Below, in pieces: positions 637-22,018 of a DNA stretch of 64,000 bases. Below the pieces are notes generated by a model, which saw only the letters and a list, made by a program, of their open reading frames with translations, did no database searches and was not told where the DNA came from. Source of the DNA: a virus. The stretch is from IMG/VR virus record IMGVR_UViG_3300017969_000006, positions 1-64,000 of that record, one strand, 5' to 3'. Within the stretch, counting starts at the first letter, position 1. Each line of letters starts with the position of its first letter. A program made the position numbers and the translations under genes.

Positions 637-2217
637 CTAGGAGTTCAACAGCACGTTGCTCGTATGAGCGACAAGGGTAATGTTTTGATCAATTGAGTCA
701 CAGATGGCCATGATCCCGCCAGTAGCGCCGACGCTTCCCTGATTGCCTGTTCCGCCAGTTCCTTTAAGCCCTCTTGCTCCCGCCGCACCAGCGTTTCCAC
801 GCGCACCAGCATTTCCACGTGTGCCAGCAGCACCGCCGGGTACAGCCGCAAATTGGATATCTGGGTTTCGGGTTCCGGGAGTGGTGCTGTAGACCGCATG
901 ACCCGGAGTGATGTTTGCAGGGTTTTCCACTGTATGAGTATTGCTCGGGTTGTGAGCCCCTGCCACATGATGATTGTGATTGGGGTTGTAGTTGTAATAC
1001 GTGTAATAGGAATAAATAGCACCGGGCGCATGCAACACGTAATGGTGATTGGACCGCTTCGCAGTGTAGTGAACATGCTGCTGAGGAACACCGGTTTCAT
1101 CAACGGCGTGACCGGTATTGTGATGGTAATTGCTTCGTTGATGGTGTGAATACGGTGGGTGACGATTTTCGACTGTAATCGTTTCAGCGACCTGCGCTCC
1201 ACCGTGTGCGTGGTGATGGTCTTGATTACCCGGAACCGTCACGTTGTGCTGCTGATAGTTCTGAACATCGGGGTTCGTGCCAACGTAGTTTGTGACAGGA
1301 GGGTTATGGTTGCCTTGGGCGTGGTGACCGGCATGACTGTTCCCAGCAGTTCCAGCGTTGCCAACGGTCCCAGCAGTTCCAGCAGTTCCAGCGTTGCCCG
1401 GATTTCCGTCAATCCCGTCAGCGCCTTTTTGTCCCAAATACCCGGTGCGGCCTTCACTCACAATTGAACCACTACCAACAATATGTTTAGCCACTACGAG
1501 AACAAGCCCGCCACCATCCCCACCTAAACCGGCAGCACCTGTAGCACCCGGATTCCCCGGGTTCCCCGGATTACCATCAGTGCCGGGGTTGCCGGGATTT
1601 CCCGGATTCCCTGGGTTACCGGGGTTCGATGAATATTCCGGAGAATTGCTATTGGCAGGGACGGTTCCACCCGCGTTACCAGCGCCACCCGCGCCACCTA
1701 GACCTGCTGTCCCACCGGCACCACCAGAGGTTCCTAATGTTCCAGCAACGTCGGTGCCCAAATTACCGTCATCAGCATTTTCGACACGGACAAAACCGTT
1801 TTGAGGATCAAACCTCCAGCCTGAACGAACAAAGTTCAAGTCCTTCATAAGTGACTGAGGAACCTGTGTTCCGCTTGAAGAAGAACCAAGAACAAAGGCT
1901 TTGGTGACGCCAAGTCCAACTGCCTCAATATCGTTGACGCGGCCAACAACAGTTCCGAGACTCACTGTCTCATCAATTGCTGATGTCATGCCAATTTTTC
2001 CACCAGTGTTGATAGTGAGAGTGTCTCGCACGAACACACGGAAACCGTTAGTGAAAAGCGTACAGTTTTGATTAATGGTCAAGTTCTCGTAATACATGTC
2101 TCGAGAAATGAGGTGCGAAGAAGTTGCCACCGTGTAGTTGCCGTCGCGACCGGAACCATAGATCGAGTCGTTACCCAAACGCTGTTCACGCTTGCGCGTC
2201 CGAATGACGCCAGCCAT
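637..2217 (-). CDS. Gly-X-Y repeat (collagen/polyglycine-like) fibre or adhesin protein with His/Asn/Tyr-rich insert
   Basis: GNP, GTA, GNA, GAR triplet runs; His-rich central segment; N-terminal domain paralogous to next gene. Confidence 0.7.
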   Translation of the reverse strand: MAGVIRTRKREQRLGNDSIYGSGRDGNYTVATSSHLISRDMYYENLTINQNCTLFTNGFRVFVRDTLTINTGGKIGMTSAIDETVSLGTVVGRVNDIEAVGLGVTKAFVLGSSSSGTQVPQSLMKDLNFVRSGWRFDPQNGFVRVENADDGNLGTDVAGTLGTSGGAGGTAGLGGAGGAGNAGGTVPANSNSPEYSSNPGNPGNPGNPGNPGTDGNPGNPGNPGATGAAGLGGDGGGLVLVVAKHIVGSGSIVSEGRTGYLGQKGADGIDGNPGNAGTAGTAGTVGNAGTAGNSHAGHHAQGNHNPPVTNYVGTNPDVQNYQQHNVTVPGNQDHHHAHGGAQVAETITVENRHPPYSHHQRSNYHHNTGHAVDETGVPQQHVHYTAKRSNHHYVLHAPGAIYSYYTYYNYNPNHNHHVAGAHNPSNTHTVENPANITPGHAVYSTTPGTRNPDIQFAAVPGGAAGTRGNAGARGNAGAAGARGLKGTGGTGNQGSVGATGGIMAICDSIDQNITLVAHTSNVLLNS

Positions 2218-2921
2218 TAGTCAACCTCTAAATAGATAGTAGTGCCGTCACTTCCAGAGCCCTGTCCTCCAGCATTCAAAATAGGGTTGGCGTACGGGTA
2301 GGCGTTGTTAATCGGTGAAGGAGTTGAGACAAGAATCACCACCCCGCCGCCAGCATCCGCTCCTCCCGTCGCCACGATTTGTGAACCATTACCGGCATCC
2401 GCAATGATGTAGCGAGCAGCAACAATAACCACTCCGCCACCCTCACCAGTTCCCCCTGCTCCACCTTGTAGGTAGAGGGGACCGTTGGTTGCTGCGGTGA
2501 CTTGATAGCCGAGAACAGCCTGAGATGCGTAGTGTGTATAGTAAACAGATCCGCCGTCCGCTGTAGTGATCTGAGTGGCGGTAGCGCTGGCACCGTTGCC
2601 ACCAAGACTATTTGTTGTTCCGGTTCCCGCTGCGCCGCCACCAAGAAGCGTTCCTGACCCGTCAAATCCACCGGGTAAACCAATGATCGCATTGTCATGC
2701 AGGGTCAAATTATTCTTAACAAACAAGCGGTAACCATTTGTATTCAGAACAGAGTTTGCGCCGACCTCAAGGTCGTAGTAAAACATGTCGCTCTGGAGGG
2801 TATGAGTAGTGGAAGCGTTAACGGTGTAACTTCCATCAACGCCGCTACCATAAATCTCGTCAGCGGAATCTAAGAATTCTTCCAGCGGACTGGGTGCGTT
2901 CAGTCGTACGATGCCGCCCAT
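2217..2921 (-). CDS. Glycine-rich putative virion protein, paralog of 637..2217 scaffold
   Basis: IYGSGxDGxYTV...DMxYxxL...LxTNG[FY]RxFVxxxLT and GGGxVxVxAxxI shared with 637..2217. Confidence 0.7.
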   Translation of the reverse strand: MGGIVRLNAPSPLEEFLDSADEIYGSGVDGSYTVNASTTHTLQSDMFYYDLEVGANSVLNTNGYRLFVKNNLTLHDNAIIGLPGGFDGSGTLLGGGAAGTGTTNSLGGNGASATATQITTADGGSVYYTHYASQAVLGYQVTAATNGPLYLQGGAGGTGEGGGVVIVAARYIIADAGNGSQIVATGGADAGGGVVILVSTPSPINNAYPYANPILNAGGQGSGSDGTTIYLEVD

Positions 2922-2926
2922 CGGTA

Positions 2927-3313
2927 TTACACCTCTTGGACTGCTGAGATTGTCACATTCAGGCTTGTTCCGTCACTTGCTCTCATGTAGATCGAGTCGC
3001 CCGCATTCACACTTTGTGCAACATATTCAATAACCAAAGACATGTTGATAAAAGTTGTCTCGTTTGCGTCAATCGTAAAGTTGTTGAACACCATGTGAGT
3101 ATCATTGACGCTTCCCAGAGCGGTAGCGGCAGGCTTAATCCACATAGTGTAAGTCTTCGCGGAAGCAGCGGTGTTGGTAACAATAATCTGCTTAATAATG
3201 TCAGTTGCGTTGGTGGGCACCGTGTATAGGGCGTTCGCGGGCAGGGTTGAAGAACTTGCAGATGTTGGGACCCGGACAGGCCCCACGATGCGTTTCTGAT
3301 AAAAGGCTGTCAT
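2927..3313 (-). CDS. Putative beta-sandwich virion structural protein
   Basis: LYTVP...IIKQIIVTNT...GDSIYMRAS...LNVTISAVQE pattern common in phage tail-region proteins. Confidence 0.6.
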   Translation of the reverse strand: MTAFYQKRIVGPVRVPTSASSSTLPANALYTVPTNATDIIKQIIVTNTAASAKTYTMWIKPAATALGSVNDTHMVFNNFTIDANETTFINMSLVIEYVAQSVNAGDSIYMRASDGTSLNVTISAVQEV

Positions 3314-3345
3314 TATCTTGAACCTCGCGAGTGTCGTCAGTTACC

Positions 3346-4185
3346 TTACATCTTACCAGTAATACGTGACTTGAAGCGGCGAATAATGCCAGTTCTGGGC
3401 GCTTTCACATCACTCGAGGAGTAGGGGCACTTTTTGTCTTCAAGTCTTTGGCGGCGCCGATATCGACGCTTGATCGACATTGGCTCAAATGCCATTCCCC
3501 AAGGATGATTGCCTGTGAAGCGATGCATCGTCTCATCGCCCCATAAAACTTCTTGTTTAACGAACCTAGGAAACGTAATCATTGTACCAATTGGCGTCCC
3601 AGCAGGAAGTGTAAAGTCTTCATCTGTAAAAATATTGATAACCCAGTTCATGTGATGGTAAAAATCTGTGTGAACAACCCCGGGAATCAATGTAAATCTT
3701 CTGTCTTCATCCCATGTACACGGAAAAAGCATTGAAGACCACCCGGGAGCAGTCATAACTTCCCATGGATTTACCAATTTCACAAAACTCGCCTCAGGGA
3801 GAGCCCTCTGGTCAGTAATTTTATGAGGACCGACGTCCTCGTAGCGGAATCCTTCAATCTTGAGATATCCGTTTTCGGTACTTTCCCAACGTGATTCCCA
3901 AGTTTTTCCATCAGGAGATTTTCTAAATTTAAGATCAGTGGGAAGAACCCATGTCACACCAGACGTCAGAAAATCCTGCGTACCTTGACAACGCTTCAAC
4001 CCTCTTTTTTCAGGATCGAGTTCCCTAAACCATTCAGGGAAACCTAAAGAGTTATCGACAGGCATTACTCCCGGAGTATAAAGACGGTTATCGCTAGGAA
4101 CCAGCAAAATTTGTCCGGGTTCAGGAACCGGAATATCAGTAAATGCCCGAACGGGGGGCAAAAGTTTCACAGAACTATGTGGCAT
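3346..4185 (-). CDS. Hypothetical protein, DUF6065-like
   Basis: KRCQG..DFLTSG, NPWEVMTAPGWS, IPGVVHTD, LPAGTPIG; parallels motifs of 19086..19814. Confidence 0.55.
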   Translation of the reverse strand: MPHSSVKLLPPVRAFTDIPVPEPGQILLVPSDNRLYTPGVMPVDNSLGFPEWFRELDPEKRGLKRCQGTQDFLTSGVTWVLPTDLKFRKSPDGKTWESRWESTENGYLKIEGFRYEDVGPHKITDQRALPEASFVKLVNPWEVMTAPGWSSMLFPCTWDEDRRFTLIPGVVHTDFYHHMNWVINIFTDEDFTLPAGTPIGTMITFPRFVKQEVLWGDETMHRFTGNHPWGMAFEPMSIKRRYRRRQRLEDKKCPYSSSDVKAPRTGIIRRFKSRITGKM

Positions 4186-5370: not shown

Positions 5371-6084
5371 TTATTCTTCGTTATCTAAAGACGGATCGTG
5401 GCTGCTCTCGTCAACATCAGTCATCTGGTCGAACGGCACAATTTCTTGACGGACGCATGTCATGAAGGTACTGATCATCCATTTATCTTCACTTATCGGG
5501 GTTGAACCAGAATGCGGGTGCGTCCAATTCGTTGGAAATAGAACGATGCGTCCTGCCCGGGCAGAAACTTTACAGTTGTGGGCGGGAAATGCTGTTTCGC
5601 CACCAACAGCAACATCGTTAAGGTAAATAACGGCACCCAAAACACGTGTGCCGACAGCGTTACCACCTTCCCATGGTGTTCCATCAACATGGGTTCTGTA
5701 GTAACCGACTGCTTTCCTGTATTTCTGAAGACGAAAGCCGGTGTCTTGAATGCCGGGCCATGCCCACAGGTCGCTGAACTCATTAATGTATTTCCCTACA
5801 GCCGCAGCCAAGGATTCTCGGATTATCTCTTCGCAATACCCGAAGATGACTGGATCTACACCGGAGTTCGAAACTGCTTGAACGCTGAGGTTGCAATCCA
5901 TTGAACTTTTCACTCGTGGATCCACCCCTCCAATCGTGGGACCCGGGGTGAAGAGCATCTCGTAGTAGGCCTTGCACTCGTCAATCAATTGAGTGCCGAG
6001 CGACTTTGGGAACATGTTGTCAGCAATCATGATTTGGGTGTCTTTATTATCTTTTGCCCAATTAAATGTTGGAAGTTTGGACAT
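5371..6084 (-). CDS. 2OG-Fe(II) oxygenase, prolyl 4-hydroxylase-like
   Basis: HVD, IYLNDVAVGGETAF, distal HPH, KWMIST. Confidence 0.9.
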   Translation of the reverse strand: MSKLPTFNWAKDNKDTQIMIADNMFPKSLGTQLIDECKAYYEMLFTPGPTIGGVDPRVKSSMDCNLSVQAVSNSGVDPVIFGYCEEIIRESLAAAVGKYINEFSDLWAWPGIQDTGFRLQKYRKAVGYYRTHVDGTPWEGGNAVGTRVLGAVIYLNDVAVGGETAFPAHNCKVSARAGRIVLFPTNWTHPHSGSTPISEDKWMISTFMTCVRQEIVPFDQMTDVDESSHDPSLDNEE

Positions 6085-7546
6085 TTCCGATACCTCTCAT
6101 GAGTGCATCCCTGTGCGGGATCAATGTTGTGTTGCTGTTTTCAGCCTTGATACTAGCCAGTACCTCTTGTGCTCGCACAACTAGGTTTCTTGCTTGCAGG
6201 CTTCGCTGAGCACTATCGCTTTTAATCAAACCCTGCCCTTGTGCCACGAATAGGAAATGATTTGCTGAAAATAGTTCGCAACCGTTGGTTGGGATGTCGA
6301 CCTGTTCGAGGGGTCGATTTTTAACAATATCCAGAATGTATGTAAGAAAATCTGGTTTTTTTCTCAATTTCTGATCTCGCCAAAGGTCGGTATCATCACG
6401 GTCCGATACGTAATGTAAACAAATCATCGTTAGTAGATTCTCTACCATCCGATCGTATTTTTTGTTGTACGAATCTCGTGCCCATTGACGATCATTGGTG
6501 TAGTGCGGCAAGTATGAAGTAAGAAGGAAACCTTGGAGTACCGATGCGCTGATCGATGTTGCTTCGAGTGGTTCTACAAAGTTTGACGAAAGGCCAATTG
6601 CTACACAGTTGGCAACCCATGGTCTTTCTACTGTTCCGGGTGAAAAATCAATAAATCGCGGATCGTCGATAATTCTGTCAAGGCGTTGCTCGAATTGTTT
6701 GTGGACTTGTTCTTGTGTAGCATACTCCGATCCGTAAACATAACCATTCCCGATACGCGACTGTGTAGGTATTTCCCAACGCCAACCAGCAGGCATTGCC
6801 TCAGCAATCGTGTAGCCACGTAAATCTTTTTCGTTTTCATGCTGGCTTTGAAAAACCATCGCAGAATCACAAGGGAGATAATCCGAAAACGAAACCCACT
6901 TTTGATTTTCAAGCGCGCTAATTATTTTCCGCTTGAATCCAGAGCAGTCAATAACGAAGTCAGTTTCATAAGAACGCTTGGAACCCAAAAGGCTGGTGAT
7001 TTCCCCAGATTCAGATATGTTCACATTGATGATTTCATCATCAGAAAACGAAACACCTATTGATTCGCAAACTCTACGGAGAAAAGAATTCAATTTGTGT
7101 GTGTCGAAATGTAGTTGGTTAGATTGCGCAAGCAACTGCTCAAGATCGTCATTGTCTGCGACATAGCCATCAGGTAAACCGGGATGTGTAAATGCTGGAG
7201 TTAACTGCTTTCCTTGAGCAATTACAGAACTAAACAGGGAATACGCTGTGAAGTGTTCCGTCTGCCCTCCAGCAATACTGTGAAAATAATCAGGGACAGC
7301 CGTTGTCCAGTCAAGAAACCTGATACCAAACTTAAATGTTGCGTCAGTCTCTCTGATCACATCAGAGCGCTGTATGCCAACGAGAGTTTCAAACATTCTC
7401 CAATGTTCGGTACTTCCTTCACCAACCCCAATAATTCCTATCGTGTCAGATGAAATAACCTCAACGTCATATAGCGGGAAGCAGGACTTCAGTAGAGCAG
7501 CGGAGATCATTCCGGCTGTGCCTGATCCAACTACATGTACTTTCAT
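6062..7546 (-). CDS. Flavin-dependent halogenase (tryptophan halogenase/PrnA family)
   Basis: GSGTAG FAD motif, IGVGEGST, catalytic-Lys motif ATFKFGIRF, WRWEIP (WxWxIP), FVEPLEATSI. Confidence 0.92.
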   Translation of the reverse strand: MKVHVVGSGTAGMISAALLKSCFPLYDVEVISSDTIGIIGVGEGSTEHWRMFETLVGIQRSDVIRETDATFKFGIRFLDWTTAVPDYFHSIAGGQTEHFTAYSLFSSVIAQGKQLTPAFTHPGLPDGYVADNDDLEQLLAQSNQLHFDTHKLNSFLRRVCESIGVSFSDDEIINVNISESGEITSLLGSKRSYETDFVIDCSGFKRKIISALENQKWVSFSDYLPCDSAMVFQSQHENEKDLRGYTIAEAMPAGWRWEIPTQSRIGNGYVYGSEYATQEQVHKQFEQRLDRIIDDPRFIDFSPGTVERPWVANCVAIGLSSNFVEPLEATSISASVLQGFLLTSYLPHYTNDRQWARDSYNKKYDRMVENLLTMICLHYVSDRDDTDLWRDQKLRKKPDFLTYILDIVKNRPLEQVDIPTNGCELFSANHFLFVAQGQGLIKSDSAQRSLQARNLVVRAQEVLASIKAENSNTTLIPHRDALMRGIGNVQTSNI

Positions 7547-9302: not shown

Positions 9303-9311
9303 GGCTGGATC

Positions 9312-10070: not shown

Positions 10071-10072
10071 GA

Positions 10073-12011: not shown

Positions 12012-12012
12012 A

Positions 12013-12225: not shown

Positions 12226-12242
12226 TCTGACGGAGGAACGTA

Positions 12243-12679: not shown

Positions 12680-12680
12680 A

Positions 12681-13016
12681 ATGCCAAAATTCACGAATGT
12701 TGATACTGCGCCGTTTTACGACAACACGGCAAACCTTGAATGGGTTGAACAGGAACTTGCAACCGTTATGTACATCGCTGGTCTAGACCCAGAACAAACG
12801 CTGAACACGGTAACGATTGATGAAATCATTGACGCTATCGAGTCAACATTTGTTATCGGAGACCTACAGATCGCAGAGCAGATCTTCGGGAAAGATCGCC
12901 AAACTAACGGTGCTCAAGCCTACATCCGGAAATGCAACAACAAACTGGCCAACGTCGCTAGACGCCACTGGCGGGAACGGCACGTAGCGAAATGGTTGAG
13001 TGAAAATGAGTATTAA
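12681..13016 (+). CDS. Hypothetical protein, paralog of 4901..5191
   Basis: LATVMYIAGLDPEQ...VTIDEI. Confidence 0.65.
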   Translation: MPKFTNVDTAPFYDNTANLEWVEQELATVMYIAGLDPEQTLNTVTIDEIIDAIESTFVIGDLQIAEQIFGKDRQTNGAQAYIRKCNNKLANVARRHWRERHVAKWLSENEY

Positions 13017-13785: not shown

Positions 13786-13797
13786 GAGGTAAATAAG

Positions 13798-14814: not shown

Positions 14815-15461
14815 AAAGGATCAGCGCCCGGCTGATTGCCTTGACCAAAAAACTCAAGATATGACACCCTGTGGCCAGATGTAATGTCAGTCACTGCGTG
14901 AGTTCCTAGATAGCCGGCTGAATAAATAAATGCTGATCCGGTTTTTGGCTTAAAGTCGAGATTCGGGTATTTGAATTGTAGGTTTCCACCTTCGCACGTG
15001 TCGCGAAGAATGAGAGATCCTGTCAAAACGGTCATGAGAGACGTTTCGCTCGCTTCACCATCACCTATGAGATTGTCATGGTGAAAACCCATTCCAGCGG
15101 TAACACCATAGGTCGCAACATGCGGTTGAGTTCTCCACCAAATACAAGGCCCCACTTCGGGGAAATGACTGATGTATCGGCGAACGCATTCACCCATTCC
15201 CTCATACATCGTATGAAAAAACTTTAAATCTTCGTCGTTTACTTCATGATCTAGACGAAGAAGTCTTCCCGGTGACATCTCGACTTCTTCAGCGGTGAAT
15301 CTGTATCCACCTCTGTTTAGGTACGTCCCATCGTCTTGAAGAATATAGTCGTCAGGCTGTTGCGCTTTGCGTCGTTCAATCCATCCACTAAGAAAGTCTT
15401 GATCGACTTCGATTACGTCATTAAACTCCATGACTCCGAAGCCATGAACGATCTCTTTCAC
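14808..15461 (-). CDS. 2OG-Fe(II) oxygenase
   Basis: HHD, EGGNLQF, KPKTG, THAV, RVSYL. Confidence 0.88.
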   Translation of the reverse strand: MKEIVHGFGVMEFNDVIEVDQDFLSGWIERRKAQQPDDYILQDDGTYLNRGGYRFTAEEVEMSPGRLLRLDHEVNDEDLKFFHTMYEGMGECVRRYISHFPEVGPCIWWRTQPHVATYGVTAGMGFHHDNLIGDGEASETSLMTVLTGSLILRDTCEGGNLQFKYPNLDFKPKTGSAFIYSAGYLGTHAVTDITSGHRVSYLEFFGQGNQPGADPFQ

Positions 15462-16030
15462 TCCGGATGACCAGCCGCTAAGTTCTCGGCGCGTTCACGC
15501 TCGTTGCGTAAACGTTTGAATGTTTTTGCTGACATGTCGTCACGGACATCCGTTAAAATTTTGTCCCAGTAGGCTGAAGTGAACAATTCACTTACCTCAC
15601 TGGCATGTTCTCCCGAAAGGTACATCGTATGTTCATCCGTGTAGCCATCTCGTCCGGGATGAGGCCAACCGTACAATCCCATTTCGACGTACTTGATTCC
15701 GGCGTCCGAAAGAATTGATGCAACTTCATGCTCGGATTCTTCGCCCCAAAGGCCATTTGCGTCACAGTAAATCCCGGAATAATTCAGGCTGGCGAACTTG
15801 CGAGCGATATCAAGACACGCTCCACCGTTGACGATGCAAATAACCACGTCTGCTTCGGCAGCAACTTTATCGAGTGTCTCAAGGTCTTCGATTGAATACT
15901 CTTCTGCTCGCGCCTTTGTTTCATCGCTGCGCTCTTCCGATGCCCATACGAGACGATGTCCGCTGTCAATCAGGGAATGTGCCAGAGTTCCTCCCATTTT
16001 TCCGGGATGAAGAATCGCAATGGTACTCAT
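15458..16030 (-). CDS. NAD(P)-binding Rossmann protein (6PGD/HIBADH N-terminal-like)
   Basis: IAILHPGKMG, LVWASEERS..T..RA, ADVVICIV, YCDAN, YLSG. Confidence 0.75.
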   Translation of the reverse strand: MSTIAILHPGKMGGTLAHSLIDSGHRLVWASEERSDETKARAEEYSIEDLETLDKVAAEADVVICIVNGGACLDIARKFASLNYSGIYCDANGLWGEESEHEVASILSDAGIKYVEMGLYGWPHPGRDGYTDEHTMYLSGEHASEVSELFTSAYWDKILTDVRDDMSAKTFKRLRNERERAENLAAGHPE

Positions 16031-16031
16031 G

Positions 16032-16847
16032 TCAGTTGAATCCAATCGGTGGGAGGATGGAATATCCTTCGGTCATGTAAACGTTAGATGCTGTGGCAGC
16101 AACGTCAGGTTCCGTAACCGGGTCTGCTACTGCTTCAAGATAATTCGCATTTGGAGAACCTTGACAATACCAGCCAAGGTATGAATATCTCCACCCCCCT
16201 GTCACCGTCTTGACTTCATGTGCCGCAAGATAATTTGCTGGGAAGAAAATCATATCTCCACGCTTCGGTTTGATGCTGATGTCGTAGTAAGAGAAACTAT
16301 GCTCGCCACCAGTGAAATTTGTTCCGTCGAGTTCTTCCTCAGTTTCAACATGATCGTTGATGTAGGCAACGACGGATACAGATGAGCGTGTGGCAAGTTG
16401 GTCGCGCGGATGAGGTTTTCCGTACTCGTAATCAGTACTCACATCTGAGTGAGGACCAAGAAATGCACCTTTAGGGTAGGCGACGATATGCCCGCGAATT
16501 TTCCACCAGATGGTTTTCCCGGCCATCGGGAATCGCTCAAGGTAATCCAGTAAGCAAGCATCGCGACGTGCCTCGATGTAATCAAGGGTTTCGATTACTT
16601 TCGGATCTGGATTCTGGTGGACCAAACTTCCTCTCCATGGCATTTCGTCGAGGGTGCCTTTTTCAAAAAAGAACTTGCTTCGATTGATGTAACCCTCTTT
16701 GCCAGTGATCGGATCAACACCTTCGGTGTATGACTCTGCACGTTCACGTTCGAGGGTCGTTTTGCAGAATTCGCGCATCCAATCCCAATCAAGGTCGAAT
16801 ACGTTTTTGTAGTGCACGATGCCGCCACCCAAATGTTCGCCATGCAT
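16032..16847 (-). CDS. 2OG-Fe(II) oxygenase
   Basis: HSD, AYIND, FTGGE, KPKRGDMIFFP, AHEV, RYSYL. Confidence 0.9.
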   Translation of the reverse strand: MHGEHLGGGIVHYKNVFDLDWDWMREFCKTTLERERAESYTEGVDPITGKEGYINRSKFFFEKGTLDEMPWRGSLVHQNPDPKVIETLDYIEARRDACLLDYLERFPMAGKTIWWKIRGHIVAYPKGAFLGPHSDVSTDYEYGKPHPRDQLATRSSVSVVAYINDHVETEEELDGTNFTGGEHSFSYYDISIKPKRGDMIFFPANYLAAHEVKTVTGGWRYSYLGWYCQGSPNANYLEAVADPVTEPDVAATASNVYMTEGYSILPPIGFN

Positions 16848-16849
16848 GT

Positions 16850-17521
16850 TTATGCCTCCTCAGGAAAAATACTACTCAAATATCTCATCGAGCCACGTAT
16901 GGTATTTGCAAAAGTTTCGTCATGAGCGGCAATTCTTAATGTTCTCACCCGTGCCCAAAATTTTGACATACGTAAACGCGGAGCACCACCAGTAACCGGC
17001 AGAACTTCGTGCTGGTACTGGTGCCCGCATGGAAATACGACAAGCATTCCGGCCGTCGGTTTAACTGTCACGTTTATCTTGTTGAATGATATTTGACCAC
17101 CATGGTAATTATCGTTGAAATACAAGAGAGTGACGAATTCATTGAATGCTCTGGGTAGTCGCGTTCCATTGGGTCCAAAGTCAAGATCACCTCGTCCTGT
17201 GAGATGATCCCAGTGTCTGCCCATCACAAAGTTGTCAGCGCAACGCTCAAGAAATAGCCCGTGATCAGTTGCTACATCTTCACCACAAGTTTTCGCAAGA
17301 AGGTCACGCATACGATCAACGAGCAAAGTCTCATTATTGAGAACGTTATTGTCGATTGCGACGATTGTAGGATCGGTAATGTCAATTGCCTCAACATCAT
17401 TCTGGAGTTCGGCCCGATCCCAAAAATGATCTTCACGCATCAAACCATTCCAGTATGCGACTTCTTCTAGAGATAAGAAGTCTTTAACTATTCGCATGCC
17501 ATCAATAGATTGAATATCCAT
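16850..17521 (-). CDS. 2OG-Fe(II) oxygenase
   Basis: HWD, LYFNDNYHGGQISF, KPTAGMLVVFP, QHEV, R. Confidence 0.9.
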   Translation of the reverse strand: MDIQSIDGMRIVKDFLSLEEVAYWNGLMREDHFWDRAELQNDVEAIDITDPTIVAIDNNVLNNETLLVDRMRDLLAKTCGEDVATDHGLFLERCADNFVMGRHWDHLTGRGDLDFGPNGTRLPRAFNEFVTLLYFNDNYHGGQISFNKINVTVKPTAGMLVVFPCGHQYQHEVLPVTGGAPRLRMSKFWARVRTLRIAAHDETFANTIRGSMRYLSSIFPEEA

Positions 17522-17523
17522 TT

Positions 17524-19089
17524 TTAACGAGATGCCTCGTGTTCATTTAGTTCAAGCATGTAGCCGATGTAATCGTGAACGCGCTCGATAATTCGCTTGC
17601 GAGAATCATCATCCTTCATGTGATTAAAACACCCGTAAAGAGTATCTATGGCAAACTGCACCAAAAAATCTTCAGGAGGCTCTTTGCCGCCGAAGTTCTC
17701 ATACTGCATGAAAGACAAGTTGTGGTAGTTCCAAGGACGATACTTGAGAGGTTGGTGTGGGAACCAATCTGGGTAATGCCAAGAGTGTCCAGCATGTCGC
17801 ATGTCGGGGTGCCAACCCAGAAAACCCCGAATCTGATTAGGGATGCAGCGAGTCGGATCAGGGTCATCATTCATGAACAGATCCCGGTCCGGGGAAAGGA
17901 ACTGATGGAAATCTCCATTTCGTGATGAAATGAATACACACCCCGGAATTGGGGCGTGCGGAAGTTGATGATTTTTATATCGCATTAAATTCGCGAATAC
18001 TCGGTTGTCCCAATTCCAAGGAACCCTATAAAGAATAAAGTCCTCATCGTCAATGAACGAGTGAAATCGTTCTACTTGATCAGGGATTCCTCCATCGGTA
18101 TCTTCAATGACGAACATTGTGACTTTCTGGAATAGGTGCTCGAGATCGGGTAGAGCATAGATTCCTTTCGTGAAAACCAATGGGATGTGGTCCGGATTCG
18201 GACCCATGCTGGTGTCTCGTTGATGATCATCATCAATAACTATGTCACCAAAGTTCTCATTCACCGAGGAGCGAAATTCAGGGTCGTAAAAAGGTCGGTC
18301 TGCGCCTGCTTCAACTCGTTGAAATATGCGGTCTTCTCGCTCCCATCCCGGATAGAAACCATGCATTACGGCTCTGTTGTCCCAAACAACAACATCGCCG
18401 ACACTCCACTCCCACTTGTACCGGTTTGCTTTATTCTTTTGATATTGCTCAACGAAGTCTTTTAGTTCGTCAAACCACGGCTGATTGCCACCATGAAGTT
18501 GTGTCCCCGGACCAGTCCAGTACAGCATCGTTTCACCCGTATCGGGGTGTGTGCGTAAAGCAGGGTGGGGCGTGACATCTCTATCTTCCGCTCCGGTACC
18601 GGAAGAGAACATCGCGGTCTGGAGGTGCTCTTTCAAGTTCGCAGGGCATTCGTCGTACATGTTACGAAGGCTAAGCCAGAACGTGTGACCGTATTCAGGC
18701 TCAACGTTGTATGTAGTCATGTGCATTGAGATCAATGCTGGAGGTTCTTCGAAAAACGGATTATCTGCGTGCCAGTTTTGGTGCAGGAAAGTTTCGGGGT
18801 CATCCTTGTTTTCTACATCTCTGATGGTCGGATGGTTGGCGTCCTTCATGATTCCATCCGGCACAGGCGTCGCATCTGGGTCGTGGTACCCAGAGTAAAG
18901 AGCCTTAACCACCGCGACATGCTCGGCATCAGTCGGGTTCATTCCGATAAACCCAATCATTTTATTCTTTTTGAGAATCTCTTTAAAGTATTCAGGCTCT
19001 GCCAGAACCTGATCAGCGGTAATCCCTTTTATTTTAAAACCAAGATTACCTAGTGTGAGTCCGATTGCGATTCCGCCTACGCCCTTCAT
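17524..19089 (-). CDS. TauD/TfdA family dioxygenase with long C-terminal extension
   Basis: WHAD, HPALRTHPDTGE, WSVGDVVVWDNRAVMH, RIFQR. Confidence 0.88.
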   Translation of the reverse strand: MKGVGGIAIGLTLGNLGFKIKGITADQVLAEPEYFKEILKKNKMIGFIGMNPTDAEHVAVVKALYSGYHDPDATPVPDGIMKDANHPTIRDVENKDDPETFLHQNWHADNPFFEEPPALISMHMTTYNVEPEYGHTFWLSLRNMYDECPANLKEHLQTAMFSSGTGAEDRDVTPHPALRTHPDTGETMLYWTGPGTQLHGGNQPWFDELKDFVEQYQKNKANRYKWEWSVGDVVVWDNRAVMHGFYPGWEREDRIFQRVEAGADRPFYDPEFRSSVNENFGDIVIDDDHQRDTSMGPNPDHIPLVFTKGIYALPDLEHLFQKVTMFVIEDTDGGIPDQVERFHSFIDDEDFILYRVPWNWDNRVFANLMRYKNHQLPHAPIPGCVFISSRNGDFHQFLSPDRDLFMNDDPDPTRCIPNQIRGFLGWHPDMRHAGHSWHYPDWFPHQPLKYRPWNYHNLSFMQYENFGGKEPPEDFLVQFAIDTLYGCFNHMKDDDSRKRIIERVHDYIGYMLELNEHEASR

Positions 19090-19814
19090 TGATCAGGCTC
19101 CTTCAGTTTTGGGTGACCAGAAAACTCTGGCCCAATTCGTTGTCCGTCAGCATCCAGACCAGTTCGGATTCCACCCATCCAAGTCCATGGTTGCTCTCGA
19201 AGTTTTGTCATTTTCGCATCGCTATAACGTTGACGTGAATCATTTAATTCCTTTTGGTCGTCATCCCACATGTTGTTCACAGTGAAATCAACTGAAGGCA
19301 TTAAATCTTTCTTGTAAAACTGGAAGAACATAAATGGGCTGCCAGCAGGAAACGTGACCGGAGATCCGACTTTCGTAATTTTCCAGTTCATATTGAACTC
19401 ATCGGGCCACCAGTCAGATGGAATGTTTGCCGTGAGTGGAACCGCTCCATCGATAAACAAATTCGGAGATCCAGAGATCCATGTTTCAATACCCGGAGGG
19501 GTATGAAATGTCCACCCGACACAAAAAGACATTATTCCGACGATGCTGGGCATGACGATGTCTCGCTCGTAAGAGTGCCCGTCGATCTCAAATGACATGG
19601 TTTGACCGGAAAGAACTTGAGGAACACCGACTCCATCCCATTGAACAACTACATCTTGTTGCAGTACGAGTTCCCAACCATTCACGTTTGCTTCCGTGAG
19701 CGGCAAACACTTATACGCGTGCTTGTTGTAGGTGTCGTCCATCCAGTCGCGACGCGGAGTTGCTTGCCGAATGGTGGGCGGGTTCTGATGGCTTCGCGTA
19801 AGCGTCACATCCAT
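19086..19814 (-). CDS. DUF6065-like protein
   Basis: RDWMD...HAYKCLPLTEAN..GWE, ISGSPN, SDWWPDEFNMNWKIT, FPAGSPF; start reassigned to MDVTL. Confidence 0.75.
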   Translation of the reverse strand: MDVTLTRSHQNPPTIRQATPRRDWMDDTYNKHAYKCLPLTEANVNGWELVLQQDVVVQWDGVGVPQVLSGQTMSFEIDGHSYERDIVMPSIVGIMSFCVGWTFHTPPGIETWISGSPNLFIDGAVPLTANIPSDWWPDEFNMNWKITKVGSPVTFPAGSPFMFFQFYKKDLMPSVDFTVNNMWDDDQKELNDSRQRYSDAKMTKLREQPWTWMGGIRTGLDADGQRIGPEFSGHPKLKEPDQ

Positions 19815-19815
19815 T

Positions 19816-20523
19816 TCAGGAACCAAGCATTGTGACTTGCGAATTTGCGTCTGGCAGACCCAGACCCGGCATACCGGCAGACGCATACCCGCCAGACCCG
19901 CCATGTTCTTTGTGGTTTCTATCGTTGTAGTCGTACATGGTGACGGCAGAATATTTGGTGCCTGACGAAACCGGCATTGAGGCGTGCGCATAAATGAAGT
20001 CGCTTGGATGCACGATGACATCACCAAATTCTGGCTTGAACTTGATGTTCTTGTACGGCATCATGTACTCGCCACCCTCGTAATCGTCATTGATGTATCC
20101 AATTGCGGACACTGCACACGAGTATGAAAAGCCGGAATCTGGATGCACGGCAAAGTGTTGGCCCGGACCGTATTTAACGAAGTTGGTTGCTTCTTCGTAG
20201 TCAAGAGACAGATTAAACATTGACGAGTAGTGCTTAACGCATGAACGCACACCAGCAATGACTTCCTCGTAGACCTTTCCAAGATCAGCAAATTCTTCAG
20301 GAACCGGCATGTCACCCTGTCGCAACTTGAAGTCGAAACAGTCGCGATAATCCTTCATGATCTCATTGTCGCCAACCATGGCCTGCTTCCACGTGAAGTA
20401 GTCGGTTGCACTTCCTTCGAGACCACGTTCCAGTCGGCCAGTGAAATTAGAGTCGACCGGCCAGACGTCCTTATAAAGGATGATCCCGTCTGTTGGGGTT
20501 CCCAGAGTGCCTGCTACGCGCAT
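19816..20523 (-). CDS. 2OG-Fe(II) oxygenase, prolyl 4-hydroxylase-like
   Basis: HPD, GYINDDYEGGE, YAHAS, KYSAVTM. Confidence 0.9.
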   Translation of the reverse strand: MRVAGTLGTPTDGIILYKDVWPVDSNFTGRLERGLEGSATDYFTWKQAMVGDNEIMKDYRDCFDFKLRQGDMPVPEEFADLGKVYEEVIAGVRSCVKHYSSMFNLSLDYEEATNFVKYGPGQHFAVHPDSGFSYSCAVSAIGYINDDYEGGEYMMPYKNIKFKPEFGDVIVHPSDFIYAHASMPVSSGTKYSAVTMYDYNDRNHKEHGGSGGYASAGMPGLGLPDANSQVTMLGS

Positions 20524-21158
20524 TATTTCCTCAATTCAGTAATCGTGTAAAAAGATGGAGTGGTCCAGCGTTCGCCGGAGATTATTTGCTTCACGCCATG
20601 AAGGTAGTGTACGTCGCCGGGGTGAGCAACTGCAAGGCCCGGTTTGATCTCAAGTTCGATATCAAATTCTGGATAATAGAACTGGCCGCCCTCAAATTCG
20701 TCATTCCAATAAATAATCGAATTAATATCGTATGTTGGGAACGGGTTGGGTTTCCCATCATTGAGTTGCTTGTCGGCGTGTGGCTGCTGCTCGTTTCCGG
20801 GCAACCAGCGGATCAGGACGGGTGGCCGGCAGTAAACAGATACGTTGAACTTATCTTCAATTACTGACTGCATTTTGAAAATATACTTATTGATCAAGTC
20901 AAACATGTCTGGCGCTGTGCGTTGCAGAATTTGACCGCTGCACATCCTATCCCACCAGTATGAAGCATCGTAGATGCAGGTGCCGTCCTCGTCGAATTCG
21001 TCACCTTTCGGATTTTCCCATTCCTGAATTGTCGGAAAAAAGTCCTGAAGTCTACGAAGATCTTCGGGTTCAACGAAATCTTCAATAATTACAATGTTCT
21101 CTACACCTGTGCCGAAGTGTCCGGGGTCAATAAGAGAACGCTCCTCAGCGGTATCCAT
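20523..21158 (-). CDS. 2OG-Fe(II) oxygenase, prolyl 4-hydroxylase-like
   Basis: HAD, YWNDEFEGGQFY, YLHGV, ERWT. Confidence 0.9.
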   Translation of the reverse strand: MDTAEERSLIDPGHFGTGVENIVIIEDFVEPEDLRRLQDFFPTIQEWENPKGDEFDEDGTCIYDASYWWDRMCSGQILQRTAPDMFDLINKYIFKMQSVIEDKFNVSVYCRPPVLIRWLPGNEQQPHADKQLNDGKPNPFPTYDINSIIYWNDEFEGGQFYYPEFDIELEIKPGLAVAHPGDVHYLHGVKQIISGERWTTPSFYTITELRK

Positions 21159-21190
21159 GAGATGAGATTATCACAACAGCCGCAGTAGAC

Positions 21191-21460
21191 CTACTTATTC
21201 ATATATCTACGCACGCGATGTTCGCCGATGAGATGGAATGTGGCGATCATCCATGCGATATGAACAAAAACAGAACGTGTCGGGTGGACCGCATTCCGCC
21301 AGTAACTACGTGTCAGGGTTTCGATCTTTTGCGTTCGTATCGCGTACAGATCGAAAAGACATATGTACAAGGCGAGAAAGGCCCACCCGAGCGCTCCTGA
21401 CTTCCTGCCGTTCCGTTCAAGGCTGATAGGGCCCCAAAAACGCTTGACTAGAGAAGCCAC
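21191..21460 (-). CDS. Small putative membrane protein
   Basis: Hydrophobic helix GWAFLALYICLFD, then ETLTRSYWR...AWMIATFHL. Confidence 0.6.
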   Translation of the reverse strand: MASLVKRFWGPISLERNGRKSGALGWAFLALYICLFDLYAIRTQKIETLTRSYWRNAVHPTRSVFVHIAWMIATFHLIGEHRVRRYMNK

Positions 21461-21475
21461 CTTCCGCCACGCTCC

Positions 21476-22018
21476 TTACTTGAAGCGTGGCGGGAAGAAT
21501 GGCGGGAAGTGCGGCGGGAAGTGCGGTGGGAACCACGGAGGGAACCACGGCGGGAAGAACGGTGGGAAGTGAGGCGGGAAGTGTGGCGGGAAGAATGGCG
21601 GGAAATGCGGCGGGAAATGCGGCGGGAAGAACGGCGGGAAATGCGGCGGAAAGTGTGGCGGGAAGAACGGCGGGAAGTGGGGCGGGAAGTGTGGCGGGAA
21701 GAACGGCGGGAAGTGAGGCGGAAAATGTGGGGGAAAGTGAGGGGGGAAGTGGGGCGGAAAGAAAGGTCCAATTGCTCGAACGACAATGGTTGTGCCAAGA
21801 GGAATCTCAAAACTTGACGTGGTCGTATAGGTGACACCGTCTACAACGATTTCATGGGCTTTACCAACATCGCCAGAAACCGAGGTATTTGCCGTATTGG
21901 CAGTCTCTGTAGCGGGGAACCCAAGGTTAACCAAAGACGTGACGAGGTTGCCGGCGTCGGTGCCGTCGGTGTATGTAAAAGTTCCGAAAGGAAGGCTGCC
22001 CCTATCTTGTGCCATCAA
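21476..22018 (-). CDS. Protein with C-terminal (Pro-Pro-X-Phe)23 repeat, putative virion-associated or modification substrate
   Basis: 87-aa N-terminal domain then PPHF/PPFF/PPWF/PPRF units; starts immediately after the tail fibre stop. Confidence 0.8.
   Translation of the reverse strand: MMAQDRGSLPFGTFTYTDGTDAGNLVTSLVNLGFPATETANTANTSVSGDVGKAHEIVVDGVTYTTTSSFEIPLGTTIVVRAIGPFFPPHFPPHFPPHFPPHFPPFFPPHFPPHFPPFFPPHFPPHFPPFFPPHFPPHFPPFFPPHFPPHFPPFFPPWFPPWFPPHFPPHFPPFFPPRFK
21482..21757. repeat. 12-bp tandem repeat, 23 units
   Basis: Units such as gaagtgtggcgg, gaagaacggcgg, gaaccacggcgg; variation mostly at third codon positions of the minus-strand frame. Confidence 0.95.

What the first reader, a model, noticed from the sequence alone, without database searches (positions are those of the whole stretch)
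637..22018. An ~18 kb phage island of tailoring enzymes bracketed by two repeat-protein substrate candidates: putative phage post-translational modification system
Seen: between 3.3 and 21.2 kb lie 8 prolyl-4-hydroxylase-like 2OG-Fe(II) oxygenases with intact HxD...H and a distal R/K (5371, 8121, 13798, 14808, 16032, 16850, 19816, 20523), 2 TauD-like, 1 PhyH-like, a degenerate copy, a flavin halogenase, a glutathione peroxidase, an NAD(P)-binding protein, and two each of DUF6065-like and MTase-like genes. The island sits inside the tail-fibre region. It starts right after a (PPXF)23 protein and ends at a Gly-Asn-Pro/His-rich fibre. Known: these families hydroxylate Pro/His/Asn/Lys or halogenate aromatic rings, and aquatic phages often carry a few such oxygenases of unknown purpose. 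Inference: the residues enriched in the two flanking proteins (Pro, His, Phe, Trp, Asn, Tyr) match those chemistries. The island may therefore be a dedicated assembly line that decorates virion fibres or matures a multi-core peptide, rather than a set of generic auxiliary metabolic genes.
Basis: partly seen in the sequence, partly recalled or inferred. Interest (0 to 1): 0.92.

Follow-up and report, generated by a model that had tools for sequence, protein, structure and literature searches.

The report
Phage proline-repeat fibre protein with hydroxylases
An uncultured salt-marsh phage, like hundreds of its relatives, keeps a tail-fibre-linked protein made of Phe-Pro-Pro-X repeats next to a fixed set of prolyl-hydroxylase-like enzymes, which gives a testable candidate substrate for the many phage oxygenases of unknown function.

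Summary
Between 2.2 and 21.2 kb lie eight PF13640 prolyl-hydroxylase-like oxygenases with intact HxD...H...R/K. With them are two TauD-like genes, one PhyH-like gene, a degenerate copy, a Trp-halogenase, a Cys-type glutathione peroxidase, an NAD(P)-binding protein and two DUF6065-type genes. The (FPPX)23 protein and a collagen-like, His-rich fibre protein bracket the island. Only the two 'MTase-like' genes found no support.

The island is a conserved cassette. With the first hydroxylase (P4H-A) as bait, 66 of 80 loci carry an FPPX array within 6.4 kb, and contig ends cut the other 14. With a structural protein as bait, all 14 loci that reach past the fibre show array, then P4H-A. A second lineage, whose enzymes are only 35-47% identical, keeps the order fibre, array protein, hydroxylases, DUF6065.

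Arrays sit on PASTA, FN3 or Ig-like modules. Some are followed by a Hint or a Peptidase_S74 domain, so they look like virion surface parts.

Best reading (about 0.45): the core hydroxylases hydroxylate prolines of this array. This is inference; no modification was seen. Against one assembly line: the TauD-like enzyme and the halogenase resemble small-molecule enzymes, DUF6065 models as a dUTPase-like barrel, and the collagen-like fibre is dispensable. This scan had already noted the array, the halogenase and the fibre pair on this same window.

The parts
22022..27856 (-). Tail fibre protein, 1944 aa, directly upstream of the array gene
   Evidence: It matches PHROG tail-fibre families (phrog_454 4.8e-31, phrog_7032, phrog_2631). 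Homologues precede the array gene in relatives.
21476..22018 (-). (FPPX)23 array protein: PASTA-like N-terminal domain of about 85 aa, 23 Phe-Pro-Pro-X units (X = His 14, Phe 6, Trp 2, Arg 1), then Phe-Lys at the C-terminus. Proposed substrate.
   Evidence: Translation. The 24 repeat units, including the final FK, are encoded by 18 distinct DNA variants. The AF2 N-domain has pLDDT about 90 and the repeat about 60, without secondary structure. The top Foldseek rows are PASTA domains, but weakly (E 0.036 and up). Relatives carry PF03793 PASTA.
21191..21460 (-). Small protein of 89 aa with two hydrophobic segments, conserved at 40-50% identity between the array gene and P4H-A in the close clade. 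Role unknown.
20523..21158 (-). P4H-A: prolyl-hydroxylase-like 2OG-Fe(II) oxygenase, a core cassette member
   Evidence: HADK...H...R triad. The profile matches P3H1 at 1.8e-6 and B. anthracis P4H at 0.004. At least 536 IMG/VR relatives. Always found with an array.
19816..20523 (-). P4H-B: PF13640 oxygenase, a core cassette member
   Evidence: Pfam 2.3e-9. Triad present. An orthologue follows P4H-A in the relatives, and it is present at 38-47% identity in the second lineage.
19086..19826 (-). DUF6065 protein, a core cassette member. The listed ORF runs to 20027, but a start near 19823 fits the orthologues and avoids overlap with P4H-B.
   Evidence: PF19541 1.3e-41. The alignment has 70% mean column identity. 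The AF2 model has pLDDT 63 and matches trimeric dUTPases (Foldseek E 5e-5, VIA Z about 10).
17524..19089 (-). TauD/TfdA-family dioxygenase, 521 aa, with an uncharacterised C-terminal half of about 270 aa
   Evidence: PF02668 9.8e-29. Its nearest solved relatives are phenoxypropionate, taurine and alkylsulfate dioxygenases. The C-terminal half has no Pfam hit.
16850..17521 (-). PF13640 oxygenase, accessory: absent from most relatives at this position
16032..16847 (-). P4H-C: PF13640 oxygenase, present in most relatives
15458..16045 (-). NAD(P)-binding Rossmann protein (F420_oxidored / P5C-reductase-type N-domain)
   Evidence: PF03807 1.9e-6, PF03446 2.5e-6.
14808..15461 (-). P4H-D: PF13640 oxygenase
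13798..14814 (+). P4H-E: PF13640 oxygenase, 338 aa, on the opposite strand
   Evidence: Pfam 3.1e-9. Its nearest solved relative is B. anthracis P4H, at 1.4e-5.
12449..13785 (+). Three conserved genes of unknown function (76, 111 and 261 aa), co-oriented with P4H-E
   Evidence: No family hit. Orthologues in relatives at 22-77% identity.
11037..11693 (-). Glutathione-peroxidase-like protein with Cys at the catalytic position
   Evidence: PF00255 1.2e-10. Motif NVTGECG.
10073..11080 (-). Second TauD-like dioxygenase
   Evidence: PF02668 1.3e-19.
9312..10070 (-). PhyH-like dioxygenase
   Evidence: PF05721 1.7e-18. Absent in G001 and G003, present twice in G002.
8121..8690 (-). PF13640 oxygenase
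   Evidence: Pfam 2.8e-14. Triad present.
7550..8119 (-). Degenerate oxygenase-like copy without the metal triad, conserved in G001 and G003
6062..7546 (-). Flavin-dependent tryptophan-halogenase family protein
   Evidence: PF04820 2.3e-97. GxGxxG at residue 7 and WxWxIP at residue 255. Its nearest solved relatives are free-Trp and indole halogenases; the peptide-Trp halogenase entry 5uao is the weakest of the 30.
5371..6084 (-). PF13640 oxygenase
3346..4185 (-). Second DUF6065-type protein (by PHROG only)
   Evidence: phrog_7084 1.4e-20, a PHROG that the DUF6065 protein also matches.
2217..3313 (-). Two small fibre-associated proteins. The 234-aa one shares its N-terminal 85 residues with the collagen-like protein.
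   Evidence: BLASTP 40% over 87 aa. Syntenic in G001 and G003.
637..2217 (-). Collagen-like, His/Asn-rich fibre protein (526 aa; four Gly-X-Y runs, 14 Pro-Gly sites, 29 His). Possible second substrate, but dispensable.
   Evidence: PF01391 30.6 bits. Tail-fibre PHROG 8745 1.5e-7. Counts. Present in G001 and G003, absent in G002.

Best explanation
The region is a conserved late-gene cassette of a large uncultured myovirus lineage.

Gene order (shown). Directly after the long tail-fibre gene the phage encodes a modular surface protein. Its C-terminal part is an array of Phe-Pro-Pro-X units. Next come two dedicated prolyl-hydroxylase-like 2OG/Fe(II) oxygenases (P4H-A and P4H-B), a DUF6065 protein and further diverged P4H paralogues.

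Proposed mechanism (inferred). During late infection, in the host cytoplasm, these oxygenases use O2 and 2-oxoglutarate to hydroxylate prolines of the array. Different paralogues may take different positions or sequence contexts. They may also hydroxylate X-Pro-Gly sites of the collagen-like fibre. As in collagen and in plant Hyp-rich proteins, hydroxyproline would stiffen or stabilise an extended polyproline-II-type stalk on the virion fibre, or change how it binds.

Accessory genes. The other genes are the TauD-like and PhyH-like dioxygenases, the halogenase, the reductase-like protein, the peroxidase and, in relatives, an O-carbamoyltransferase. They are variable. They may add further chemistry to the same protein or act on small molecules.

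Shown: the gene content, the catalytic motifs, the conserved linkage and the domain partners of the array. Inferred: that the array is the substrate, that it is in the virion, and what hydroxylation does.
For: 1. Linkage, with bait independent of the array. The P4H-A profile finds at least 536 IMG/VR relatives. Of the best 80 loci, 66 have an FPPX array 29-6422 nt away. The other 14 are cut by contig ends. All 26 loci with at least 7 kb upstream and 3 kb downstream have an array.
2. Linkage, with neutral bait. A structural protein upstream of the fibre was used as query. All 14 loci that reach past the fibre show the array and then P4H-A.
3. An apparent exception resolved. The complete genome G006 has a short array (PPYF x3, then PPRFK) on an FN3 protein just upstream of the hydroxylases.
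4. The linkage survives rearrangement. P4H-A is inverted in 14 loci, insertions reach 6.4 kb, and the array's N-terminal module varies between an 88-aa PASTA-like domain, 245 aa and 620 aa of FN3.
5. Deep conservation. In a second lineage the enzymes are only 35-47% identical, yet the order is still fibre, array protein, P4H-B-like x2, DUF6065-like, P4H-A-like. 84 of 104 loci have both array and P4H-A-like gene.
6. Enzyme class. Pfam classes PF13640 as a 2OG-Fe(II) oxygenase superfamily domain. The only solved relatives found for P4H-A and P4H-E are P3H1 and the B. anthracis collagen-type P4H. All have the catalytic triad.
7. The array looks like a virion surface or fibre element. It sits on PASTA, fn3 and He_PIG modules. 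It can be followed by a Peptidase_S74 or a Hint domain, or by a C-terminal domain of about 105 aa. It also occurs near the C-terminus of 750-1480-aa proteins.
8. The repeat is kept at the protein level. The 24 units (23 FPPX units plus the final FK) are encoded by 18 DNA variants, and arrays end in ...FPPxFK across the close clade.
9. Old, individually conserved paralogues imply distinct roles.
10. Precedent. [quoted passage not shown]
11. Metatranscriptome contigs from four salt-marsh runs cover the block. One contig bridges the junction between fibre and array gene. This is weak evidence.
Against: - No modified residue has been observed. For PBCV-1, hydroxyproline was not found in virions (PMC7019647).
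- All linked loci belong to one broad phage lineage with homologous fibre modules, so inherited synteny explains part of the signal.
- The only compositional correlation, TauD genes with His in the array, reduces to one change on the tree and has a counter-example, L081.
- No protein fuses an array to a PF13640 domain.
- The nearest solved relatives of TauD-521 and of the halogenase act on small molecules.
- DUF6065, the third constant member, models as a dUTPase-like barrel, which does not obviously fit protein tailoring.
- PF13640 arrays occur in many aquatic phages; whether those phages carry FPPX arrays was not examined here.
- The array is predicted only as an extended, low-confidence chain.
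- RNA-library contigs may be carried-over DNA.
Confidence: 0.45

Rival explanations
1. The oxygenases are auxiliary or host-directed genes, as has been proposed for cyanophage 2OG oxygenases. They would act on host proteins such as translation factors or ribosomal proteins, on free amino acids, or on small metabolites. They would lie next to the array gene only because the region downstream of the fibre gene is a tolerated site for accessory genes that has been inherited as a block.
For: - Arrays of 1-24 diverged 2OG oxygenases are common in aquatic phages. Their function is untested, and they have been proposed to reprogramme host metabolism (PMC9602691).
- The nearest solved relatives of TauD-521 and the halogenase act on small molecules.
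- Three more oxygenase-like genes lie far from the array, at 92-97 kb of the same record.
- Enzyme content beyond the core varies between relatives.
- All linked loci share homologous fibre modules.
Against: - P4H-A, P4H-B, DUF6065 and the array are retained together in every adequately sampled locus, while the neighbouring genes come and go.
- The pairing persists to about 40% enzyme identity and through inversion, insertions and swaps of the array's N-terminal module.
- Each paralogue is individually conserved.
Confidence: 0.33
2. The cassette modifies nucleotides or phage DNA. A dUTPase-like DUF6065 protein would supply or bind a nucleotide, and DSBH oxygenases would oxidise bases, as TET/JBP-type enzymes do.
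For: - The DUF6065 model matches trimeric dUTPases (VIA Z about 10, Foldseek E 5e-5).
- P4H-E has a sub-threshold Tet_JBP hit, 21 bits against a cut-off of 34.9.
- The genome also carries thymidylate-synthase-like and PAPS-reductase-like genes at 50-53 kb.
Against: - The PF13640 hit on P4H-E is the stronger one (38.1 against 21.1 bits) and the Tet_JBP hit is below its cut-off.
- The model has a mean pLDDT of only 63 and 10-15% identity to dUTPases, and the dUTPase motifs were not tested.
- The same fold occurs in the herpesvirus tegument protein pp71 (8qdo, Z 8.5).
- The cassette sits among fibre genes, not among replication genes.
Confidence: 0.07
3. The array protein is a ribosomally made multi-core precursor. 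Tailored FPPX peptides would be cut out and released as a natural product.
For: There is an N-terminal domain followed by many identical short units, next to tailoring-type enzymes.
Against: - The units are contiguous, with no spacer or cleavage motif.
- No protease, cyclase or leader-recognition family was found in the island.
- Arrays occur inside 750-1480-aa FN3-bearing proteins and before Peptidase_S74 or Hint domains.
Confidence: 0.03
4. The hydroxylases modify the host translation machinery, so that ribosomes can read through 23-34 consecutive Pro-Pro motifs. This would link enzymes and array without the array being the substrate.
For: From established knowledge, not tested here: consecutive Pro-Pro motifs stall ribosomes, and PF13640-type enzymes hydroxylate EF-Tu (PPHD) and ribosomal protein uS12 (OGFOD1; PMC4396695, listed). 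The enzyme-array linkage is as.
Against: - Nothing here points specifically to translation factors.
- It does not explain five or more distinct paralogues.
- Short arrays of 3-4 units keep the enzymes as well.
Confidence: 0.03

Closest known systems
Chlorovirus PBCV-1 prolyl 4-hydroxylase (A085R) and proline-containing peptide substrates
   Same: It is a virus-encoded small prolyl 4-hydroxylase. [quoted passage not shown]
   Different: PBCV-1 is a eukaryotic virus with one enzyme. Its role in replication is unknown, and Hyp was not detected in its virions. Here a bacteriophage has 5-8 paralogues plus DUF6065 in a fixed cassette beside one specific repeat protein.
Collagen-type prolyl hydroxylases (B. 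anthracis P4H; human P3H1)
   Same: Same catalytic domain and triad. They are the nearest solved relatives of P4H-A and P4H-E. The collagen-like fibre at 637-2217 has 14 X-Pro-Gly-type sites.
   Different: Sequence similarity is confined to the C-terminal core (E 1e-5 to 1e-6). FPPX has no Gly, so it cannot form a collagen triple helix. Activity was not tested.
2OG-Fe(II) oxygenase gene arrays of T4-like cyanophages (for example S-SCSM1, 24 genes)
   Same: Many diverged PF13640 and PF05721 genes in one aquatic phage genome, often with a Trp-halogenase gene. Their function is untested (PMC9602691).
   Different: P4H-A has no orthologue in 50,697 deposited phage records; the best match is 31-40% over part of the protein. 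Here the enzymes form a syntenic cassette tied to a fibre-linked Pro array.
Phage fibre proteins with C-terminal intramolecular chaperone (Peptidase_S74) domains
   Same: Some array proteins carry PF13884 directly after the array. From established knowledge, this domain is the auto-cleaving folding chaperone of trimeric tail spikes and fibres.
   Different: The window's own array protein ends in ...FPPRFK with no such domain. Trimer formation by FPPX arrays is untested.
VirX1 and other flavin-dependent tryptophan halogenases
   Same: PF04820 with its motifs. Cyanophage homologues are 30-38% identical.
   Different: The nearest solved relatives halogenate free Trp or indole. VirX1 ranks 28th of 30. 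There is no evidence for a peptide substrate.

Membership tests
PF13640 2OG-Fe(II) oxygenase (prolyl-hydroxylase-like) | Pfam score above the gathering threshold | tested here: met
   Seven of eight genes score 28.5-54.3 bits against a cut-off of 27. Gene 20523 has no Pfam hit but is tied to the family through its paralogues and a PDB profile match.
PF13640 2OG-Fe(II) oxygenase (prolyl-hydroxylase-like) | HxD...H iron triad and a distal basic residue for 2OG | tested here: met
   All eight genes have them. Gene 7550 lacks them.
PF13640 2OG-Fe(II) oxygenase (prolyl-hydroxylase-like) | Peptidyl-proline hydroxylase activity | not testable with these tools
   The only indirect evidence is the nearest solved relatives, P3H1 and B. 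anthracis P4H.
Flavin-dependent tryptophan halogenase (PF04820) | Family score, GxGxxG and WxWxIP motifs | tested here: met
   327 bits. GSGTAG at residue 7 and WRWEIP at residue 255.
TauD/TfdA dioxygenase (PF02668) | Family score above the threshold | tested here: met
   101.5 and 71.6 bits against a cut-off of 27. HxD/E motifs are present.
DUF6065 (PF19541) | Family score above the threshold | tested here: met
   Gene 19086 scores 143 bits against 26.6. Gene 3346 is linked only through the shared phrog_7084, which is inconclusive for Pfam membership.
Trimeric dUTPase superfamily (considered for DUF6065) | Fold match | tested here: inconclusive
   VIA Z about 10, rmsd 2.8-3 A over about 117 residues, and Foldseek E 5e-5. 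The model has a mean pLDDT of only 63 and identity is 10-15%.
Trimeric dUTPase superfamily (considered for DUF6065) | The five conserved dUTPase sequence motifs | not tested
   No motif comparison was made. The PDB sequence profile search with A2 found no dUTPase at E up to 1.
Collagen triple-helix repeat (PF01391), for 637-2217 | Gly-X-Y runs scoring above the threshold | tested here: met
   30.6 bits against 27.2. Four runs of at least 5 triplets.
PASTA domain (PF03793), for the array protein's N-domain | Family or fold match | tested here: inconclusive
   The window protein has no Pfam hit. The top Foldseek rows are all PASTA domains, but at E 0.036 and above. Many array-bearing relatives do carry PF03793.
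RiPP multi-core precursor system | Cleavable core units, plus a protease or leader-recognition element | tested here: not met
   The units are contiguous and no such family was found in the island.
   No Pfam or PHROG hit up to E = 5, and no motif I, in any unassigned ORF.

The most novel reading that the evidence does not exclude
Aromatic-proline arrays (FPPX)n are a previously undescribed fibre material of tailed phages: a polyproline-II-type stalk on tail-fibre-associated proteins. Its prolines would be enzymatically hydroxylated, and possibly further carbamoylated or halogenated, by a dedicated phage-encoded cassette. This would be the first enzymatic hydroxylation of a bacteriophage virion protein. 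It would also give the first assigned substrate for the very abundant phage PF13640 oxygenases.
Probability: 0.35. Interest if true: 0.88.

Novelty: new variant of a known kind. Interest (0 to 1): 0.74.

Why it matters
2OG-Fe(II) oxygenases are among the commonest unexplained accessory genes of aquatic phages, with up to 24 per genome, and no substrate is known for any of them (PMC9602691).

This cassette offers a concrete and cheap experiment. One small repeat protein and two or three adjacent enzymes are conserved together in hundreds of uncultured phages.

If the array is hydroxylated, phages would be shown to tailor their own adsorption apparatus after translation. A new proline-based structural repeat would be defined. 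The result would also yield compact bacterial-type prolyl hydroxylases with a defined non-collagen target.

If the array is not hydroxylated, the tight linkage still needs an explanation. The enzymes could then be tested on host targets.

Tried and rejected
- Nucleotide search of the first 24 kb against deposited phages found no match. P4H-A has no orthologue in cultured phages.
- Host or bacterial context: P4H-A and DUF6065 profiles in 185,579 species genomes returned only phage-like MAG contigs assigned to unrelated taxa. No host could be inferred.
- TauD genes against His in the array looked striking (23/1 against 0/12). On the P4H-A tree it is one change, and the independent-pairs test has no power. 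It is not used as support.
- Rosetta-stone search for array-oxygenase fusions among 206 array-bearing protein clusters found none.
- A BLASTP check found no similarity between the large array-bearing proteins and the window's fibre. This is not evidence against a fibre role.
- The promoter and terminator scan of 10.5-28.7 kb found fewer sites than in shuffled sequence. It therefore gives no information on operon structure.
- Literature searches for DUF6065, for hydroxyproline in phage virions and for polyproline-II tail fibres found nothing on this system.
- The ESM Atlas search only re-found DUF6065 clusters.
Neighbourhoods of array proteins with He_PIG modules were therefore not examined. 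Those with Hint and S74 domains were reached through the search for related loci instead.
- Metatranscriptome contigs cover the whole 9.0-28.9 kb stretch in one run and 23 of 30 bins in three others. Contigs cannot show level or strand, and carried-over DNA cannot be excluded, so this is not counted as proof of expression.

Full report
**What the window is.** The window is the first 64 kb of a 99.8-kb IMG/VR virus record that CheckV rates 67% complete. It carries a tail sheath, a baseplate wedge, a portal, a terminase and a head protease, so it is a myovirus. The nearest terminases in deposited phages are only about 40-43% identical. Near-identical DNA occurs in salt-marsh metagenomes.

**Checking the observation.** On the minus strand, in transcription order, come:
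- a 1944-aa tail fibre (22022-27856);
- the array protein (21476-22018);
- a small protein with two hydrophobic segments;
- the enzyme block;
- two small fibre-associated proteins;
- a collagen-like, His-rich fibre protein (637-2217).

Pfam-A places seven genes in PF13640 above threshold. It also finds two TauD, one PhyH, one Trp_halogenase (327 bits), one GSHPx, one NAD(P)-binding protein and one DUF6065.

The eighth hydroxylase-like gene (20523) has no Pfam hit. It matches its paralogues and PHROG 2297/274. As a profile it matches prolyl 3-hydroxylase 1 at 1.8e-6 and the B. anthracis P4H.

An alignment shows HxD, the distal His and the basic residue in all eight genes. Gene 7550 aligns but has lost them. 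Gene 3346 shares phrog_7084 with the DUF6065 protein.

The halogenase has GxGxxG and WxWxIP, and the peroxidase-like protein has Cys at the catalytic position. No ORF gave any sign of a methyltransferase. Three further oxygenase-like genes lie at 92-97 kb of the record.

**The repeat protein.** It has an N-terminal part of about 85 residues, then 23 FPPX units (His 14, Phe 6, Trp 2, Arg 1), then Phe-Lys. The 24 units, counting the final FK, are encoded by 18 different DNA variants, so the repeat is held at the protein level and is not a fresh slippage product. AlphaFold2 with eight orthologues gives a confident N-domain (pLDDT about 90) and an extended repeat without secondary structure (pLDDT about 60). 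The best Foldseek rows for the N-domain are all PASTA domains, though weak (E 0.036 and above).

**Is the island conserved?** Yes. The first search with the array protein returned 21 IMG/VR loci. Those with enough flank have the same order:
- on the array's strand: fibre, array protein, small hydrophobic protein, P4H-A (20523), P4H-B (19816), DUF6065, TauD-521, P4H-C (16032), NAD(P)-binding protein, P4H-D (14808);
- on the opposite strand: P4H-E (13798) and two unknown genes;
- then the peroxidase-like gene.

Orthologues are 55-90% identical, while the paralogues within the window are 20-37% identical. The duplications are therefore old and each copy is maintained.

The halogenase half (2.2-11 kb), including the degenerate copy, is also syntenic in two near-complete relatives, G001 and G003. 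A third, G002 (92% complete), goes from the PhyH and TauD genes straight into another module. It lacks the halogenase half and the collagen-like fibre.

**Testing the link without bias.**
1. The P4H-A profile finds at least 536 relatives in IMG/VR. Of the best 80 loci (62-86% identity), 66 hold an FPPX array of six or more units. In 52 it lies upstream on the same strand. In 14 it lies downstream on the opposite strand, because P4H-A is inverted. The 14 loci without an array are all cut by contig ends. All 26 loci with ample flank have one.
2. With a structural protein upstream of the fibre as bait, all 14 loci that reach past the fibre show the array and then P4H-A.
3. A complete 160-kb genome seemed to have P4H-A without an array. 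It turned out to encode an FN3 protein ending in PPYFPPYFPPYFPPRFK just upstream of the hydroxylases.
4. Array proteins of a different build led to a second lineage. Its enzymes are only 35-47% identical to the window's (DUF6065 21-30%), yet the order is again fibre, array protein, two P4H-B-like genes, DUF6065-like, P4H-A-like and more paralogues. 84 of 104 loci show both array and P4H-A-like gene, and most of the rest are truncated.

A more distant group has a P4H-B-like gene among fibre genes and neither P4H-A nor an array. Those records are incomplete.

**What kind of protein carries the array?** Across about 200 protein clusters the array follows PASTA, fibronectin-III or He_PIG modules. 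It may be followed by a Hint/intein-type domain, a Peptidase_S74 domain or a C-terminal domain of about 105 aa. It also lies near the C-terminus of 750-1480-aa proteins. From established knowledge, Peptidase_S74 is the auto-cleaving chaperone of trimeric phage fibres and spikes. These partners, and the constant position after the fibre gene, point to a surface-exposed part of the adsorption apparatus. No cluster fuses an array to an oxygenase domain.

**What the enzymes resemble.**
- P4H-A and P4H-E match only protein prolyl hydroxylases among solved structures.
- TauD-521 matches phenoxypropionate, taurine and alkylsulfate dioxygenases, which are small-molecule enzymes.
- The second TauD-like protein has no solved relative at E up to 0.01, and the PhyH-like protein only one weak one.
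- The halogenase is closest to free-tryptophan and indole halogenases. The peptide-Trp halogenase entry is the weakest of the 30 hits.
- The DUF6065 model (pLDDT 63) matches trimeric dUTPases in two independent aligners (Foldseek E 5e-5; VIA Z about 10 for 11 entries). Sequence identity is 10-15% and its function stays open.
- The 480-aa gene at 97.8 kb is a NodU/CmcH-type carbamoyltransferase. In several relatives its orthologue lies between the array gene and P4H-A.

**A correlation that did not hold up.** Loci whose arrays contain His nearly always have TauD-like genes (23 of 24), and loci with Tyr-only arrays never do (0 of 12). On a P4H-A tree the Tyr-type loci form one clade, so this is one event and carries no statistical weight.

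**Expression.** Contigs from four salt-marsh metatranscriptome runs match 9.0-28.9 kb at 99% or more. One run covers every bin, and one contig bridges the junction between fibre and array gene. Contigs cannot show strand or level, and DNA carry-over is possible. This is a weak hint only.

**Interpretation.** The best-supported reading is a conserved late-gene cassette in which the core PF13640 enzymes hydroxylate prolines of the fibre-linked array. I put this at about 0.45. The X-Pro-Gly sites of the collagen-like fibre are a possible second target where that protein exists. The other enzymes are accessory.

The main rival, at about 0.33, is that the enzymes act on host proteins or small molecules and travel with the array only by descent in a tolerated insertion site. 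Nucleotide or DNA modification, a RiPP-like pathway, and support of polyproline translation are minor rivals.

**Comparison with what is known.** The closest precedent is the chlorovirus PBCV-1 prolyl 4-hydroxylase. It hydroxylates Pro-containing peptides in vitro, but its role is unknown and Hyp was not found in virions (PMC7019647). Arrays of 2OG oxygenases in cyanophages are well known, and their function 'has not been specifically investigated' (PMC9602691). I found no paper on DUF6065, on FPPX-type arrays or on hydroxyproline in phage virions.

The finding is therefore a new variant of a known kind: a viral prolyl hydroxylase with a Pro-rich repeat. The candidate substrate is unusually well defined and has not been described before.

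**Earlier notes of this scan.** First-stage notes on this same window had already flagged the array protein, the halogenase and the Gly-rich fibre pair. They agree with what I found. I re-tested the repeat's synonymous variation and the halogenase motifs myself.

Noticed in passing
G000 97847-99289 (L282:9848-11287), outside the window: This is a NodU/CmcH-type O-carbamoyltransferase (PF02543 + PF16861). In several relatives (L011, L019, L040, L050, L058) its orthologue sits between the array gene and P4H-A. A hydroxylase followed by an O-carbamoyltransferase suggests carbamoylation of a new hydroxyl group.
   Followed up: partly
P0093, P0058, P0065, P0090 (array proteins of other phages); loci L178-L281: In a second phage lineage the aromatic-proline array (FPPF/FPF variants) is followed by a Hint/intein-like domain (PF14890, starting with Cys right after the array) or by a Peptidase_S74 chaperone domain. 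This suggests C-terminal self-processing of the array protein.
   Followed up: partly
window 19086-20027 and 3346-4185: The DUF6065 model has a dUTPase-like beta-barrel (VIA Z about 10). This Pfam family of unknown function also occurs in bacteria, mostly Pseudomonadota according to the ESM Atlas. No literature exists on it.
   Followed up: partly
L159, L161, L165, L167, L170, L171 (about 15.9-16.6 kb in each): A more distant phage group has a P4H-B-like gene among its fibre genes. It has no FPPX array and no P4H-A in the records searched (G007, G008). A 320-aa ORF at 10527-11486 of L159 is moderately Pro-rich and may be collagen-like; this was not checked.
   Followed up: no
window 50282-52799: PAPS-reductase-like (phrog_2302, 1.3e-73) and thymidylate-synthase-like (phrog_85, 1.7e-69) genes lie close together. 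They might bear on nucleotide or DNA modification.
   Followed up: no
window 21487-21834 (+) and 21509-21817 (+): The ORF list shows 102-115-aa frames antisense to the repeat. These are by-products of the 12-nt period, not genes. The sense frame is the one whose N-domain is conserved in relatives.
   Followed up: yes
window 17527-18342 (C-terminal 272 aa of the 521-aa TauD-like protein): This conserved extension has no family hit, so it may be a second, unknown domain fused to the dioxygenase.
   Followed up: partly
window 9000-28900: Contigs from four salt-marsh metatranscriptome runs match at 99% or more, which suggests that the phage was active, or at least abundant, in those samples.
   Followed up: partly
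L135:11049-11645: This array protein has only about six FPPY/F/H units, followed by a Cys-rich tail, and it lies between two fibre-like genes. It is another architectural variant.
   Followed up: no
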